Source: Ophelia neglecta (lineage: Eukaryota). From it: a stretch of DNA of 64,000 bases. Below are positions 6,001 to 56,400 of the stretch, in pieces. A program made the position numbers. The DNA is taken from contig OZ260661.1 of assembly GCA_965285935.1 (NCBI GenBank), positions 144,026,001 through 144,090,000 on the forward strand. Reading direction: 5' to 3'. The stretch's first letter is position 1; every line of letters begins with the position of its first letter.

Positions 6001-9000
6001 AGAATCACATGGAATGAATTTCCTTATATAGGTCCTCAGCTGCCACTGTTCATTGTTCACGAATCGCAGTTCTCCCATGTTTTATTTTGAACTCTGAACT
6101 GGGGATCGCCAGATACTACATGTTAGGCCTGAACAGGCTCCTGGGCAACATCGTTTACCGACCTCTTGGCAATGGCAGTGCTAATAATCAGATCTAAAAG
6201 TTACACAATGGAAAGTGACGTCATCAAAGAGGTGACACATTTGTTATACATACATTAAACAAGTCCAGTCTGGGTACATTGTTGGACCGAAGCATTAAAA
6301 TTTGTCGCTGCATCTTTAATATGTACCCGAAACATACAAATTTCATGCAGGTGGTCTTGAACATGTAAATGCGTCTGATTATATTGTTTAGATACATAGG
6401 CCACCCCTTTCTTTCTTTTTTAAATGATGAAAATGTGATTTTCCAAGCCCGAATTGTCATGTGGTTGTACCCATAAGGCATGTATTAAAATGTGTTTCAA
6501 TTTGTGTTACAACTGACTTACACACCCTATTTGAATTTGACAGCTGTTCCTCTGATGCACCTATATGTATATTTTGCCAGTGATGTTTTCCCAGTTCTCA
6601 GTTAACACCATTATGAACACCATTACATGTATTTACTTTTTAACATCCTGTAGTTTATACATGACTCGGAGCTATAATTTTTCGAATGTTATTTTTGTTT
6701 AAACTGATCCTTTTACCTTTATTTAATTGCTTTTAAAACCATTTCACATCAGTTTGTCAACTCAACCAAATGTTACTGTACCCTAGCTCACTCAACCATT
6801 TCCCTACTGAAGCAATTCACTCAATATCAATAAAGCCCATGATTCTTTAAATTTGAACTCTTCAAATTTCTCAATCTATTAATGAATTCATGTCTGCAAT
6901 CTATATTACTTATTAAGTTCTTGTTTACATTCAAACATTTATTGTTTATCGATCATATTGATGCAGTTTTTATCCCCTCTGAACCCATTTATAACTTGAT
7001 TAACTACTTCACGTGTTTGTCTGCGGATATATGATCACTGGAAAGTGTGTGTGATGGTAGGACTGGCTGTCCTGATCAAGAAAACGAACATATTTGTGTG
7101 GAAGGCGTGGTCTAAGAATCCTTACTTCGGGTTTACATTGATATGTAACTACATGTAGCTGCACAGTATCCTTTGGCTTTTTCGTCCATTAAGGGTAATC
7201 CGGTGTGTAACGACATTGAAACAATTCCTTATCAAAAAAATCCCCGGCTTATGTGGTTCATAGTTGAGTGCTAGGAATGGTGTGAATAAAAAGCGTTTAC
7301 GGGTTGTAAAGGAGAATGTTAATGTGGACCAGTATGCGAGTGGTAATTTCGCATTGATGGGAAGTACAGGCAGTATTAAATGTATTAAAGAAATGTTTAG
7401 CGCTAATGATAATGGGATTTAGTTATTTGGAAAAGTCCACGGTGCCTGGAAAAAAAGTATCTCAGATGAACTGAATAACATGCTTTATGATTTTATCTAG
7501 AATGGCGACAGGCCAAAAGTGGGCAAATAAAATATGCATTGTGTCAAAATGGTGAACAAAGTAGTGTAAGTCCATCCAGTGACATTCTAAACTCTGAAGG
7601 TTAGCAGCGATAACAAAGAATATATAGTATGTTGGATGAGCGCCAATCGTTGTTTAAATGTCTGGTAAAAGAAGCCAATGCTTGTGACTTTTTGAACCCA
7701 GGTACTGGATCTTAAAAGCGGGTGACAAATACTACTATGTTTTGGTCGAAAGGGACTCATTTAGCTCGGAGGAAGGCTTACTATTTTTTGGGATGTAGAA
7801 TATGATATAAGCTTTTGACCAATTTGAAATACATATTTTCTAAAAAATGAAAGGCTTACATTACTCGTAAAGCGCTTTTATGATCAAGTCTGTTTCACAT
7901 TAATACATTTACTTGATCCAGTAACTGGTAAAATCCCATATCACTAGCAAATAAATACAAGTACAATGTAGCATATAGATAAATATGCATGCCTTTAGAC
8001 TGTCTAAGTGTATGTTACAGAGCTTCTACGGGCAATGAGAACATTTACCGACTGTGCGTTTTCTACGGCCGCTGAGTATGACGTCAAGATACATGTATTC
8101 TAGGTAAAGCTACTTGCTACGGGCGCGCTTGCCGAGACCGTACGCCTGGTCCATCTTGGTATAGGTGAAAGTAAAAAGTCGACCAGCACACACCGCGGCT
8201 ATAAACCGACGAACTCCCTGAAACTCAAGCGAAAGGCACGGAAAGGTGCCTACTTGCTGGAAATTACCGAAATCTAACATGGCGAAGGAGAATTTGTTCA
8301 GGCTATTTGTTATATTCATCATTAAAATAATCGGTGTCCATTGTTTGGAAGACGCTGCACAGAGTTACATAACTCGTCTGGCATTTATTTCTATGAAATC
8401 CCATGGAAATATACAGGACACGCTTGCTGCTACAGCATCAAAGCTTATTCAGTCCACTGCTCACTGCCACCCACGTCCTATGAAGGGTCCTTCCAGAATA
8501 TACCCCTACTCTCCCTGTGGCATTGTTCATTCCGGAAGCGAGGACTTTGGTATGTCCGCATACTGGAAATTAAGCGTTCACAAAACGTTAAACATTAATC
8601 TTACAATTGTTCACTTGTTACTAGAGGATTCCATGTATAAATGCCAGTTTGAGAGGCTAATTTTGACGGTTACGCTGCCTTCTGGTGTTGATATACAACG
8701 CGCATATTGCGGACATATCGTCCCTCGGAGCATCTACATAGAATCAACCGAACTAAGTTTACAATACCTTAATGACAACTCACCTACAGGAGAAAATGAC
8801 GGATTGGCGAAAGGCATTATTATTCTGTATCAAATTGTTAGTGCATATTGTTAGAACAATTACCAAAGACTTGGAAACAGTATAATTTATCATAATATGC
8901 CCCGCTTCCACACTCATAAAGAAAGTTTCAGGATAACCATACTAGCGGATTATAGTGAGCAGATCCGTAGCAGTCTCGTTGGGAACGTAACCTGTTATGA

Positions 9001-53400: not shown

Positions 53401-56400
53401 TGCATTCTGATAGCCACGCTTATCCCACTAGAAATGCTAGCATGTTTTGTATTCAAAAATTCAACTTACCTTTTTATTTAATGCAGAAGGGGTCCCTAGT
53501 TTTTATCATATACATGTTGAAATAGTCCACTACACAGTTTAAATCTTTTGTATCACATACATGTTTAAATAGTCCACTACACAGTTTAAATCTTTTGTAA
53601 AGACAAACCTTCTTGTTGTGACACACGCCTAAGTTCTTTTGATCTTGTCCTTTTGCAATCTAGGTAGGTTGACGAGTCCCATATTCCGTGGTATGAACTT
53701 GCAGCACATAACGAGTCGCTGCTCATACTTTGCAGTCTTTCTATATTCAACTTATATGTGCAAATGTATATGCGTTTTGTCTGACTAGAACTAGAAAACA
53801 ACTAGAAATGCTAGCATGTTCTGTATTCCAAAATTCAACTTACCTTTTTATTTAATGCAGTAGGGGGTCCCTAGTTTTTATCACATACATGTTAATTTTT
53901 TTTTAAATAGGTTGACGAGTCCCATATTCCGTGGTATGAACTTGCAGCACATAACGAGTCGCTGCTCATACTTTGTCTTTGTGCAGGCAGACTTTCTATA
54001 TTCAACTTATATGTGCAAATACATATGCATTGTGTCTGATTGTCTTAAATGGCGTTGTCTCAAACTAAGGAGCGACACCGTTTCACCAGCAGGTAAGTAA
54101 TGGGTTTTATAAACATAACCGGTATAGCTTTGGCTGTATTTATTCAAATTATGACTTTGCGTGATTTATCATTCGATTTTGAAACAAATCATTTTCAAAA
54201 CGGTTCCTGGCATATGTGGTGCATTGTCGCGGGTTGCTTTCAATCTTTAGTCACGTGCACGCCTTCAGCGCTAACGGTTATTCTCATAAACTCCCTTTAT
54301 AAGAGAACCAAAATCCTCAAATCCGCCATCAAATTCACGATGCCACCGTCATGGCAAAGCATACAGGAAGAATTATCTTGTTCTAGAACACACCTGCCGC
54401 GGATTGGCAAATACCAAAGGTAGTATGAGCTTGTCCTATAACTCCTAGATACTACTACACCAGGAAAGTATCGCTATATGGTAATTTTTGTGAATCTCTT
54501 GGGACGTAGCAAATTATTATAAATAATATAAAATTAATATTAATATAATATAAAAATACTATAAGGTTTCAGATCATGATAAGTATCCCTTCTTTCCACA
54601 AGAAATCACTCAAACATTACTCGGCGACGCCATTTTATGTGGAAAATATATTATGAACTATTGAACGCGAAATTTTCTTGATCACAAAAATGTCCTTGGC
54701 CTTTGGAAAGTAATAAGAAATTAAGGCACATTCGCCAAGAGCATTTTTTATTCAACAAACAATATCATTGTCCGTATGTTGACCTAAGCCCTCGAAGGTC
54801 AAATTGATGTTTATGAAAAATACTACTATGCATCCGTAAGCTTCTTTTTCCTTAATCAAATGTAATTTGAAAATATTTAGGTTATCACTGTTGAATGTTT
54901 TACTTGATGCTTCGCTTAACAAAGAAAATAAAACAATATCCTTTTATATATTTTGGATTGCTTCCTTGATATTAAGACATACAATAAATGCCATTTTAAT
55001 TTTACTTTTTCACAACATTTTTTTTTTTTGCTGTTCGCGGTTATGACATTTGAAGCATTTGTTGGTATTTCACCATTCCGCGCTGCTTTACTGATTCATT
55101 GCGCAGGAAGTGAGATTATATCGACAGAAGACCCGTAAAAAGGTGTGTCCCTTAAGAAACTTTATTTTTTAAACCAACGTACAGCTCTTCAAAGTGCCAT
55201 GGTATGCATGTCCTCAAACCAACCAACTCGCCGCTCCGTTGAGATACCTAAATGTTTTTACGTGTCGATAAACATGATAAATAGTGATTGCTGGACTTAA
55301 TTAAATGCACGCTGAAACTCATTTGACAATTTTTTATTGATGCAGCGTTAAATGAGAAAGTGTCGGCAATCTGTTTATTTTACATATATTTTCAGAATGC
55401 CCGCTCTGGCTCGAGATATTATGTTGATCCCATTTTTTTATGAAAATTCAAGTAGGTAAACAAATAGTGGCGGACAAAGATATAAATATGAATGTGCCTT
55501 TATCGAAAAAAAGTTTCAACAAAACTGTTAAGAAACATTAAGAGTATTATACAAAATGTTATTGTATGTAGTCGTCTTGGTGGGGAAAATCTTCTAAATC
55601 GGGATATTTCTTACACAGTGTCATTTTACGTCTTAGGAAGTAAACTGGAATGGTCTAGTTGCAGTAAGTTATGATTGTTAATATATTGTATACAACCATC
55701 GCGTCAATACTAGTTATTTGTATTTTTATTTATATAATGTGTGTACATATTCTACATTTCTGTACCTAGTACATTGCATTGTCCCTTGGTAGTTTTTTTT
55801 TAACCCGTCGTTTAATTTATTAAAGAATTTTCTAGTCATATTCAAAGACTAATGAGCCATAGACTTTCCTATTATGCTTTGTTATATTAAAAAGCATACA
55901 GCCATTCAGTAAATCAACAGTCAGTGTAGTAAGGTAACTTCACTCATAAAGCACTTTTAACCCTTTGGGTGTCGAACAAATACGCAATTTTGATGTCGGT
56001 AAAGTGCCACTAGAATAAGCATATTCCCCAAAGAATCATGTCTACTTATAGCAATGAAGAGTTTATGAACAACTAAATATCTCAAACTATATATTCTCTT
56101 AAAGGACAGAACCACAACAAGGATATAAAACGAAACTGCAGAGGAAAAGGAGCTGATATGGTGCCAGGGTGGACTTTTTGTATACAGAATACTAGGTAAA
56201 ATATAGAGCTGATTTTAGAGGCCCTTTACTCTTTACAAGGCGACTATTCCTGTCGAAAATTAACAGTAAAGTATGCCATCCTTAAGCTCCTGTATCATTA
56301 ATTAAGAGTAACATGAAAACCTGTAAATTGACATTGTTTAAAGTTTTGCTTGAACTTTACTTACCATGAGAACAAAGCAATATACTTATGTCTGTCTTAG

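What the first reader, a model, noticed from the sequence alone, without database searches (positions are those of the whole stretch)
7040..54445. Birth-and-death receptor cluster: one intact gene, one young pseudogene, two old relics
Seen: four same-strand paralogous loci at different stages of decay (7040-7213, 8279-16517, 38307-44681, 53665-54445). Many differences between the two long copies change amino acids. Inference: rapid turnover like that of immune or chemosensory receptor arrays.
[Added by the scan's program, not by the reader: the finding's places include an assembly gap (unread letters, written N; its length is only estimated) at 18233 to 18369. Whether the letters on both sides are continuous or in frame is not known: test that first.]
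Basis: partly seen in the sequence, partly recalled or inferred. Interest (0 to 1): 0.7.

Follow-up and report, generated by a model that had tools for sequence, protein, structure and literature searches.

The report
Duplicated giant receptor gene, one dead
An invertebrate-type genome stretch carries two tandem copies of a very large sensor-like receptor gene, one intact and one broken, plus two old fragments, which is an ordinary way for such receptor families to grow and shrink.

Summary
The window has a tandem segmental duplication with a 30,027-bp period: unit A 7985-26566 and unit B 38012-53486. Each unit carries a two-exon gene for a 2,013-codon receptor, in the order signal peptide, CUB, about 620 unassigned residues, probable C-type lectin, 5 LDLa, LRR, 7 hydrophobic helices. 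That is GRL101-like (type C2 LGR).

- **Copy B (38307-44681)** is open, with a canonical GT-AG intron.
- **Copy A (8279-16517)** is dead: three premature stops, a 2-bp frameshift and a 1,692-bp transposon with a 9-bp target duplication.
- **Two fragments** (7002-7226; 53645-54330) are real paralogous pieces carrying stops or frameshifts.
- **The N gap** (18233-18369) lies 1.7 kb beyond A's stop. No receptor reading frame crosses it, and both sides are colinear with unit B.

No positive selection was seen: dN/dS is 0.43 overall and below 1 in 9 of 9 domain partitions. Divergence is patchy. The intron differs by 2.7%, exon stretches by 2-10% and the flanks by 14.7%. This suggests an older duplication partly homogenised by gene conversion, so A may not be "young".

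Tandem, fast-changing GRL101-like clusters are already published for snails. Family size, copy-number variation and read depth could not be checked.

The parts
7002..7226 (+). Relic 1: fragment matching the second LDLa module plus the following linker of the receptor. It has three in-frame stops.
   Evidence: tblastn: 45% identity over 75 aa, E 8e-14. blastn: 72% to A 14231-14436 and 69% to B 42393-42595. Alignment and translation. Mismatch fraction 0.26-0.29.
7985..26566 (+). Duplication unit A: promoter stub, pseudogene and about 10 kb of 3' flank. It contains the assembly gap 18233-18369 and an A-only stretch 20365-25493.
   Evidence: 11 colinear blastn blocks against unit B.
8279..16517 (+). 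Copy A, a pseudogene of the receptor. Lesions: TAG 8852-8854 at the junction of a 39-bp deletion; transposon 10086-11777; TAG 12029-12031; TAA 13913-13915; a 2-bp deletion after 15933. There are also in-frame indels of 3, 9, 6 and 3 bp.
10086..11777 (.). Non-autonomous terminal-inverted-repeat transposon inserted in exon 1 of copy A. It has a 9-bp target-site duplication GTTGCCAAG (10077-10085 and 11778-11786), and copy B shows the empty site.
   Evidence: Inverted repeat 10078-10199 / 11785-11664 at 83.6%. Borders and empty site. No ORF longer than 109 codons lies inside it.
12614..13012 (+). Tandem duplication of about 199 bp in copy A. It repeats the last 33 nt of exon 1, the splice donor and the start of the intron.
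   Evidence: 12614-12813 vs 12812-13012 at 98%. Both donors are printed.
38012..53486 (+). Duplication unit B: promoter stub, intact gene and 3' flank.
38307..41018 (+). Copy B exon 1 (904 codons): signal-like hydrophobic start, CUB (residues 95-171), about 620 unassigned residues, and the N-terminal half of a probable C-type lectin domain.
   Evidence: Open frame. CUB 25.8 bits against a cut-off of 21.4. Lectin_C E 0.11, below cut-off. Hydrophobic segment at residues 5-23. Donor GT at 41019-41020.
41019..41351 (+). Copy B intron: 333 nt, phase 0, starting GTAAGT and ending TTTCAG.
   Evidence: Read directly. The frame arithmetic rests.
41352..44681 (+). Copy B exon 2 (1,109 codons plus TAA): rest of the lectin-like domain, about 210 unassigned residues, 5 LDLa modules, an LRR block, and 7 hydrophobic helices (exon-2 residues 834-1104) with only about 5-8 residues of tail after the last one.
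   Evidence: Ldl_recept_a 92.4 bits in 5 stretches. LRR_8 66.6 bits. 7tm_1 22.6 bits, below the 30.5 cut-off. Hydropathy.
53645..54330 (+). Relic 2: fragment spanning the LRR end to TM4. It has an internal deletion of about 230 bp, a local tandem duplication (53665-53784 / 53908-54039) and three 1-bp frameshifts.
   Evidence: Mismatch fraction 0.16-0.17 against A and B.
26623..38011 (.). Spacer between the units: 41-bp satellite blocks, a tyrosine-recombinase retroelement (26728-31218) and a LINE-like element (32099-35694, minus strand).

Best explanation
This is a true tandem segmental duplication in a non-human, invertebrate-type genome. The duplicated locus encodes a giant orphan GRL101-like (type C2 LGR-like) receptor. 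The downstream copy B looks functional. It has two exons and 2,013 codons, and its domain order is signal peptide, CUB, long unassigned region, probable C-type lectin, 5 LDLa, LRR, then a divergent 7TM domain. The upstream copy A was functional for part of its history and then died through at least five independent lesions. Two short fragments outside the pair are leftovers of earlier copies or of partial duplications. After the duplication, transposons and a satellite filled the spacer and hit both units. Inferred, not shown: (1) the duplication arose by unequal recombination; (2) it is older than the 6% gene-body divergence suggests, because patches of the gene bodies were later homogenised by gene conversion; (3) the protein works as a cell-surface sensor in which lectin/CUB/LDLa/LRR modules bind an extracellular ligand and pass the signal to the 7TM domain. 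That role would be chemosensory or immune, as proposed for snail relatives.
For: Duplication: 11 colinear same-strand blocks cover gene and flanks, with a 30,027-bp period. Gene model: open frames of 928 and 1,119 codons joined by a phase-0 GT-AG intron. Domains. The Atlas feature search puts the exon-2 ORF nearest Relaxin receptor 1 (0.89, 187 of 256 features shared) and GRL101-like clusters (0.88, 188-192 shared); these are leads only. Death of A: 3 premature stops, a 2-bp deletion, and a transposon whose 9-bp target duplication has an empty site in B. Past constraint: dS 0.115, dN 0.050, dN/dS 0.43. Nonsynonymous sites changed less than synonymous ones in both exons (Fisher p 7.5e-6 and 5.4e-9). 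A pseudogene since birth paired with any functional copy would give a value of at least 0.5. With relic 2 as outgroup over 457 sites there are 23 A/B differences: 8 A-derived (1 synonymous, 7 nonsynonymous), 13 B-derived (6 synonymous, 7 nonsynonymous) and 2 unresolved. Gene conversion: differences per 300 bp range from 6 to 37 (chi-square 83, 21 df, p 2.6e-9). The intron has 9 mismatches in 333 sites and the upstream 295 bp has 13 in 294, against 503 in 3,421 in the flanks. Divergence jumps from 3.7% to 10% at the transposon insertion point. Precedent: tandem GRL101-like clusters in snails with truncated and present/absent copies (passages).
Against: There are no read-depth, long-read or expression data, so neither the copy number nor B's activity is shown. 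The 7TM assignment is weak by sequence: 7tm_1 scores 22.6 bits against a 30.5 cut-off, and the TM region gave no PDB hit at E<=10. By eye, from recalled class-A motifs, the acidic TM2 residue, E/DRY and the proline of NPxxY are not evident. The C-terminal tail is very short. Both AlphaFold models were unusable (pLDDT 38.6 and 31.4). The lectin domain is split by the intron and each half is below threshold. On gene conversion: the longest identical run (131 bp) was reached in 234 of 2,000 permutations, so it is not significant. Third-codon-position heterogeneity is only p 0.03. The silent-site contrast of 4.0% against 8.4% used tracts chosen after seeing the data. Uneven constraint or mutation rate could explain part of the pattern. 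The polarised counts are small.
Confidence: 0.8

Rival explanations
1. Assembly artefact: A and B are two haplotypes of one locus, mis-joined in tandem, possibly at the scaffold gap.
For: Gene A lies wholly on the contig left of the gap and gene B on the contig right of it. The two genes are therefore linked only through a scaffold join. No read data are available.
Against: The right-hand contig alone holds both copies of the flank (18370-26566 and 47903-53486). It starts close to where the left contig leaves off relative to unit B, 861 bp further on in B. The 8 kb upstream of A has no match upstream of B. Divergence is 6.2% in the gene and 14.7% in the flanks, with many indels. Each unit carries its own transposon insertion, with the empty site in the other. 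dS 0.115 is far above usual allelic values, which is my general knowledge and not a call.
Confidence: 0.04
2. The two 'relics' were never full-length genes. They would be partial copies made by local rearrangement or carried by mobile elements, so the array has had only two real members.
For: Both are short (225 and about 690 bp) and end abruptly. Relic 2 is internally rearranged, with a deletion plus a 243-374-bp local duplication that also repeats a piece of the unit's flank. No other part of the gene is found near either relic, even at E<=10.
Against: Both are on the gene's strand and sit just outside the duplicated pair, where neighbouring array members would lie. No terminal repeats of a carrier element were found around either. 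Their divergence is graded, 0.26-0.29 and 0.16-0.17, as expected of successive decay.
Confidence: 0.3
3. Adaptive diversification: the amino-acid differences between A and B were driven by positive selection on ligand-binding domains, as in immune receptor arrays.
For: 62% of coding differences (225.5 of 363) are nonsynonymous. The highest dN/dS values, 0.55-0.66, fall in unassigned ectodomain stretches. Snail relatives lie in a hyperdiverse, resistance-associated region.
Against: dN/dS is below 1 in 9 of 9 partitions, significantly so in 7 of 9. One partner is a pseudogene, which by itself raises the pairwise ratio. Two sequences cannot support site-level tests.
Confidence: 0.12
4. Copy B is also no longer a working receptor. 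It would be an open frame on its way out, or a non-signalling binding protein.
For: The 7tm_1 score is below cut-off. Canonical coupling motifs are not evident by eye. The tail after TM7 is very short. Only 295 bp of shared upstream sequence came with the duplication.
Against: 2,013 codons are open with intact splice sites. B-derived changes in the polarised stretch are 6 synonymous to 7 nonsynonymous, against 1 to 7 on the A lineage. The same stop codon and the same divergent motifs occur in A, so these are family traits and not recent damage. A TATA-like motif is kept in B but mutated in A.
Confidence: 0.15

Closest known systems
GRL101 / type C2 leucine-rich-repeat GPCRs (LGRs with multiple LDLa modules; first described in Lymnaea stagnalis)
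   Same: The order is several LDLa modules, then an LRR block, then seven membrane helices. The nearest Atlas clusters are named GRL101-like or Relaxin receptor 1. PMC4079206 defines GRL101 as an 'LGR with multiple LDLa domains', Type C2 (passages).
   Different: About 1,200 extra N-terminal residues hold a CUB domain, a probable C-type lectin and two long stretches with no Pfam match. The 7TM is too divergent to reach Pfam's cut-off or to hit any solved structure by sequence. Clade membership could not be tested.
SudRes2 cluster of GRL101-like genes in Biomphalaria sudanica (PMC12297450)
   Same: These are paralogous GPCR genes with C-type lectin, LDLa and LRR ectodomains in a dense tandem cluster: 12 genes in 440 kb, some lacking domains, some truncated or present in only one haplotype (passages).
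   Different: Only two full-length units are visible in this window. A CUB domain is not mentioned in the passages I read. The organism of the window is unknown.
Expanded GRL101 family of apple snails (PMC6573481)
   Same: The family grew by tandem duplication. The paper reports 29-132 genes per species, clusters of up to 9-11 genes on one scaffold, expression in tentacles and a proposed chemosensory role (passages).
   Different: Pseudogenes and relics are not discussed in the passages read. No expression data exist for this window.
Relaxin-family receptors RXFP1/2 (type C1 LGRs)
   Same: LDLa plus LRR plus 7TM; top Atlas cluster. LGR4/5 ectodomains match the LRR block at E 1e-15 to 1e-19.
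   Different: RXFPs have one LDLa module (recalled knowledge), whereas this protein has five. No RXFP chain appeared among the best 60 of 273 PDB matches.

Membership tests
Type C2 LGR (GRL101-like) | Rhodopsin-type seven-transmembrane domain at the C-terminus | tested here: inconclusive
   7tm_1 gives E 8.2e-5 and 22.6 bits, under the 30.5-bit cut-off, covering profile positions 48-229 of 260. There are seven hydrophobic segments. The TM region alone gave no PDB sequence match at E<=10. The AF2 model was too poor to use.
Type C2 LGR (GRL101-like) | Leucine-rich-repeat ectodomain directly before the 7TM | tested here: met
   LRR_8 66.6 bits, plus LRR_5 and LRR_4. LGR4/5, LRRC15 and IGFALS chains match residues 643-823.
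Type C2 LGR (GRL101-like) | Multiple LDL-receptor class A modules N-terminal to the LRRs | tested here: met
   Ldl_recept_a 92.4 bits in 5 stretches. LRP2 chains match at E 4e-42.
Type C2 LGR (GRL101-like) | Groups with GRL101 sequences in a phylogeny of LGR 7TM domains | not testable with these tools
There are only Atlas feature leads.
CTL-LDL-LRR GRL101-like receptors (Biomphalaria SudRes2 type) | C-type lectin-like domain in the ectodomain | tested here: inconclusive
   The domain straddles the intron and was searched only as halves. The N-terminal half gives Lectin_C E 0.11 and 13.6 bits against a 22.6 cut-off; the C-terminal half has no hit. Atlas leads to Lectin_C/CUB clusters score 0.82-0.84. 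The joined model was not searched.
Class A GPCR able to couple to G proteins | Conserved E/DRY (TM3) and NPxxY (TM7) motifs | tested here: inconclusive
   This was read by eye in the translation printed, against motifs recalled from memory. TM7 reads N-L-I-L-Y, with the proline absent, and no E/DRY is evident after TM3. No alignment to a reference was possible.
Birth-and-death multigene family | Tandem duplicates with pseudogenes and fragments in the same array | tested here: met
   One open copy, one copy with 5 disabling lesions and two fragments, all on the + strand.
Birth-and-death multigene family | Copies evolve independently, with little concerted evolution | tested here: inconclusive
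   Divergence is mosaic: 2-4% tracts including the intron, against 6-10% elsewhere and 14.7% in the flanks. This points to some gene conversion. The run-length test was not significant, at 234 of 2,000 permutations.
Birth-and-death multigene family | Lineage-specific gains and losses across the genome and between species | not testable with these tools
   No genome, population or related-species data were reachable.

The most novel reading that the evidence does not exclude
The dead copy may not be just debris. The mosaic of 2-4% and 6-10% tracts would then reflect repeated gene conversion between pseudogene A and live gene B. The pseudogene, and perhaps other array members outside the window, would serve as a reservoir feeding sequence variation into the ectodomain of a lectin/CUB-bearing GRL101-like sensor. 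That receptor's N-terminal architecture and degenerate coupling motifs would mark an undescribed LGR subtype.
Probability: 0.1. Interest if true: 0.6.

Novelty: new member of a known kind. Interest (0 to 1): 0.25.

Why it matters
Mostly it does not change anything. Tandem duplication followed by decay is the standard way invertebrate receptor families turn over, and GRL101-like clusters of this kind are already in print for snails. Three things have modest value. First, it is a cleanly dated example: the empty sites for both transposon insertions are preserved in the sister unit. Second, the gene model, a 2,013-codon receptor in two exons with about 830 ectodomain residues of no known family, could help annotate such genes, which the Biomphalaria authors say automatic pipelines miss. 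Third, there is a hint that a pseudogene and its live neighbour exchange sequence.

Tried and rejected
- **Structure prediction.** I folded the LRR+7TM part and exon 1 as single sequences. Mean pLDDT was 38.6 and 31.4, so I ran no fold search, because matches to such models are meaningless.
- **PDB sequence search.** The TM region alone gave 0 hits at E<=10. The exon-1 ORF gave only two CUB chains, at E 0.56-0.91.
- **Pfam on overlapping pieces of the ectodomain.** 4 of 7 pieces had no family at E<=1.
- **Internal repeat search of the two exon translations.** Nothing scored below E 3.5.
- **Search for further relics.** tblastn at E<=10 found none beyond the four loci.
- **tRNA and Rfam scans.** Both returned 0 hits.
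- **Carrier-element repeats.** None were found around relic 1 or in the A-only stretch 20365-25493.
- **Longest-identical-run test for gene conversion.** Not significant, reached in 234 of 2,000 permutations.
- **Literature.** 'GRL101' with 'CUB domain' gave 1 paper and 'GRL101' with 'pseudogene' gave 1 paper. Judged from title and abstract only, neither is relevant.
- **Collections not used.** The bacterial, phage, plasmid and E. coli collections cannot hold relatives of an animal gene.
- **Human origin rejected.** The window holds DIRS/Ngaro-like, BEL/Pao and LINE elements and a GRL101-like gene. I do not take it for human.

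
Full report
**Gap first.** The window has one N run, 18233-18369, 137 letters. It lies 1,716 bp downstream of copy A's stop codon (16515-17), outside all four loci of the finding, so no receptor reading frame crosses it. The only ORF over it (18106-18480, minus strand) exists because N is read through. Both sides align to unit B on the same strand and in the same order: A 17730-18232 with B 46535-47041 at 83.7%, and A 18370-18868 with B 47903-48430 at 79.9%. The scaffold join therefore agrees with unit B in order and orientation. 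B has 861 bp between those matches against 137 N, so the true length is unknown.

**What is there.** Self-comparison shows that the two long loci are the cores of a larger tandem segmental duplication. Unit A is 7985-26566 and unit B is 38012-53486, joined by eleven colinear blocks with a start-to-start distance of 30,027 bp. tblastn with the two exon ORFs of copy B finds the four loci named and nothing else, even at E<=10. I do not take the contig for human. It carries DIRS/Ngaro-like, BEL/Pao and LINE-like elements and a GRL101-like gene.

**Gene model of copy B.**
- The ATG is at 38307 and is followed by a hydrophobic signal-like segment at residues 5-23.
- Exon 1 runs to 41018 (904 codons).
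- The intron spans 41019-41351. It starts GTAAGT, ends TTTCAG, and is in phase 0 at both ends (frames).
- Exon 2 is 41352-44681 (1,109 codons plus TAA), giving 2,013 codons in total.
The cost is that the probable C-type lectin domain, which the intron splits, could only be tested as halves.

**Domains of copy B.**

| Region | Evidence |
|---|---|
| CUB, exon-1 residues 95-171 | 25.8 bits, cut-off 21.4 |
| Lectin_C, N-terminal half | E 0.11, below cut-off |
| Lectin_C, C-terminal half | no hit |
| LDLa | five stretches, 92.4 bits |
| LRR_8 | 66.6 bits |
| 7tm_1 | 22.6 bits, cut-off 30.5 |
| Seven hydrophobic segments, exon-2 residues 834-1104 | hydropathy |

- About 620 residues of exon 1 and about 210 of exon 2 match no Pfam family: 4 of 7 overlapping pieces had no hit at E<=1.
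- PDB sequence matches come only through the LDLa modules (LRP2, E 4e-42) and the LRRs (LGR4/5, IGFALS and others). The TM part alone matched nothing at E<=10.
- The Atlas feature search puts the exon-2 ORF nearest Relaxin receptor 1 (0.89, 187 of 256 features shared) and GRL101-like clusters (0.88, 188-192 shared). It puts exon 1 nearest Lectin_C/CUB clusters (0.82-0.84). These are leads, not tests.
- Both single-sequence AlphaFold models were unusable (pLDDT 38.6 and 31.4), so I ran no fold search.

**Copy A is dead.** Aligned to B, it has five hard lesions:
- a TAG at 8852-8854, formed at the junction of a 39-bp deletion;
- a 1,692-bp terminal-inverted-repeat element at 10086-11777, flanked by a 9-bp target duplication (GTTGCCAAG), with B showing the empty site;
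- a TAG at 12029-31 (B codon 699);
- a TAA at 13913-15 (B codon 1146);
- a 2-bp deletion after 15933, inside the TM domain.

Copy A also has in-frame indels of 3, 9, 6 and 3 bp. A 199-bp tandem duplication (12614-13012) repeats the exon-1 end and its splice donor; this need not disable splicing. Both splice signals are kept. A TATA-like motif 110 bp upstream of B's ATG is mutated in A.

**Selection.**
- Nei-Gojobori counts on 1,990 of 2,014 codons (24 dropped for gaps or stops) give 137.5 synonymous and 225.5 nonsynonymous differences. That is dS 0.115, dN 0.050 and dN/dS 0.43.
- 'Many differences change amino acids' is therefore true as a count but is a per-site deficit.
- All 9 of 9 domain partitions have dN/dS below 1 (0.15-0.66), and 7 of 9 are significant at p<0.05. 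The highest values fall in the unassigned ectodomain stretches.
- A pair made of one functional gene and one pseudogene dead since birth should give at least 0.5. This implies that A was constrained for part of its life, which is an inference.
- With relic 2 as outgroup over 457 sites there are 23 A/B differences. Eight are A-derived (1 synonymous, 7 nonsynonymous), 13 are B-derived (6 synonymous, 7 nonsynonymous) and 2 are unresolved. This fits relaxed constraint on A and constraint on B, but the counts are small.

**Age and gene conversion.** Mismatch fractions are:

| Comparison | Mismatch fraction |
|---|---|
| Whole gene block | 0.062 (447 of 7,243) |
| Intron | 0.027 (9 of 333) |
| Upstream 295 bp | 0.044 (13 of 294) |
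| First 420 bp after the stop | 0.133 (56 of 421) |
| Duplicated flanks | 0.147 (503 of 3,421, 8 blocks) |

- The flank value is close to relic 2 against A and B (0.160 and 0.174).
- Along the gene, differences per 300 bp range from 6 to 37 (chi-square 83, 21 df, p 2.6e-9). Third codon positions alone give p 0.03.
- Low tracts of 2-4% lie at B 39564-40163, 40464-41663 (including the non-coding intron) and 43464-43763.
- The step from 3.7% to 10% coincides with the transposon insertion site, and none of the five hard lesions lies in a low tract.
- My reading is that the duplication is older than the gene bodies suggest, and that parts of the genes were later homogenised by gene conversion. I put this at about even odds.
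- Against it, the longest identical run (131 bp) was matched in 234 of 2,000 permutations. The silent-site contrast (4.0% against 8.4%) used tracts picked after seeing the data. Uneven constraint could also contribute.

**Relics.**
- Relic 1 (7002-7226) aligns to the second LDLa module and, importantly, to the linker after it. It is therefore a paralogue of this gene and not just any LDLa module. It has three in-frame stops.
- Relic 2 (53645-54330) runs from the LRR end to TM4. It has an internal deletion of about 230 bp, three 1-bp frameshifts and a local duplication that also repeats a piece of the unit's flank end. It keeps the two bases that A has lost.
- Relic 1 sits about 760 bp upstream of unit A and relic 2 about 160 bp beyond the end of unit B, so they may be remains of neighbouring array members.
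- They could equally be partial duplications that were never whole genes. I give that about 0.3.

**Against an assembly artefact.**
- The contig right of the gap alone contains both copies of the flank, and it resumes 861 bp further along unit B than the point where the left contig stops.
- The 8 kb upstream of A has no counterpart upstream of B.
- Each unit has its own transposon insertion, with the empty site preserved in the other: A 10086-11777, and B 48431-49693 with target duplication CAAAATGTT.
- Divergence is far beyond what I know of allelic variation.
- Read depth was not available, so I leave this rival about 4%.

**Known relatives.**
- PMC4079206 (passages) defines GRL101 as an LGR with multiple LDLa domains, Type C2.
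- PMC6573481 (passages) reports 29-132 GRL101 genes in apple snails, in tandem clusters, expressed in tentacles and proposed to be chemosensory.
- PMC12297450 (passages) describes 12 GRL101-like genes with C-type lectin, LDLa and LRR ectodomains in 440 kb of Biomphalaria sudanica. Some are truncated or present in only one haplotype, and they lie in a region associated with schistosome resistance.
- PMC13403566 (passages) reports tentacle-specific expression in a triton snail.
- A CUB domain on such receptors did not turn up in one full-text search: 1 paper for 'GRL101' with 'CUB domain', which looked unrelated from its title and abstract.

**Unchecked.** Family size, pseudogene fraction, copy-number variation, read depth, expression and phylogenetic placement all remain untested.

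Noticed in passing
window 26728-31218: Tyrosine-recombinase retroelement with gag zinc knuckle, RT and Phage_integrase ORFs. Its split direct repeats are 26728-26973 = 30336-30581 (99.6%) and 30261-30341 = 31138-31218 (100%), a layout I recall for Ngaro/PAT-like DIRS elements. The near-identical repeats suggest a very recent insertion into the 41-bp satellite.
   Followed up: partly
window 26635-26733, 31213-31513, 36665-36772, 37682-37750: Blocks of one 41-bp satellite lie at the junction between units A and B. They are interrupted by the YR element and a LINE-like element (32099-35694, minus strand; RVT_1 plus zf-RVT). The satellite may mark the original duplication junction.
   Followed up: partly
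window 48431-49693: A second terminal-inverted-repeat element lies in unit B's flank, with a 9-bp target duplication CAAAATGTT and the empty site in unit A at about 18865. Its inverted repeat starts GGCT, like the element that broke copy A, and it has the same target-duplication length, so the two may belong to one superfamily.
   Followed up: partly
window 59486-64000: An open frame of 1,505 codons runs off the window end and carries Pao retrotransposon peptidase (160 bits) and DUF1759. It is a BEL/Pao-type LTR retrotransposon that looks intact as far as seen.
   Followed up: no
window 4701-5432: A 33-bp minisatellite of 21.8 copies at 88% match, C-rich on the + strand (GC skew -0.37 for 4001-6000). 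It creates a spurious 176-codon ORF on the minus strand.
   Followed up: no
window 20365-25493: A 5.1-kb stretch is present in unit A's flank but absent from unit B. It has no ORF of 120 codons or more, no internal repeats and no match elsewhere in the window. Whether it is an insertion in A or a deletion in B is unexplained.
   Followed up: partly
window 38188-38200 vs 8161-8173: About 110 bp upstream of the ATG, copy B reads TATATATAAAAG where copy A reads TATAGGTGAAAG. This may be loss of a TATA box in the pseudogene.
   Followed up: no
window 2-529 (-) and 57531-58508 (-): Two further reverse-transcriptase fragments, RVT_1 at 25 and 33.5 bits. The window is transposon-rich around the receptor pair.
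   Followed up: no
window 44640-44681 and 16476-16517: Both copies end with the same TAA only about 5-8 residues after the last hydrophobic helix. The family seems to have almost no cytoplasmic tail, which is unusual for a GPCR. A missed 3' exon cannot be excluded.
   Followed up: no
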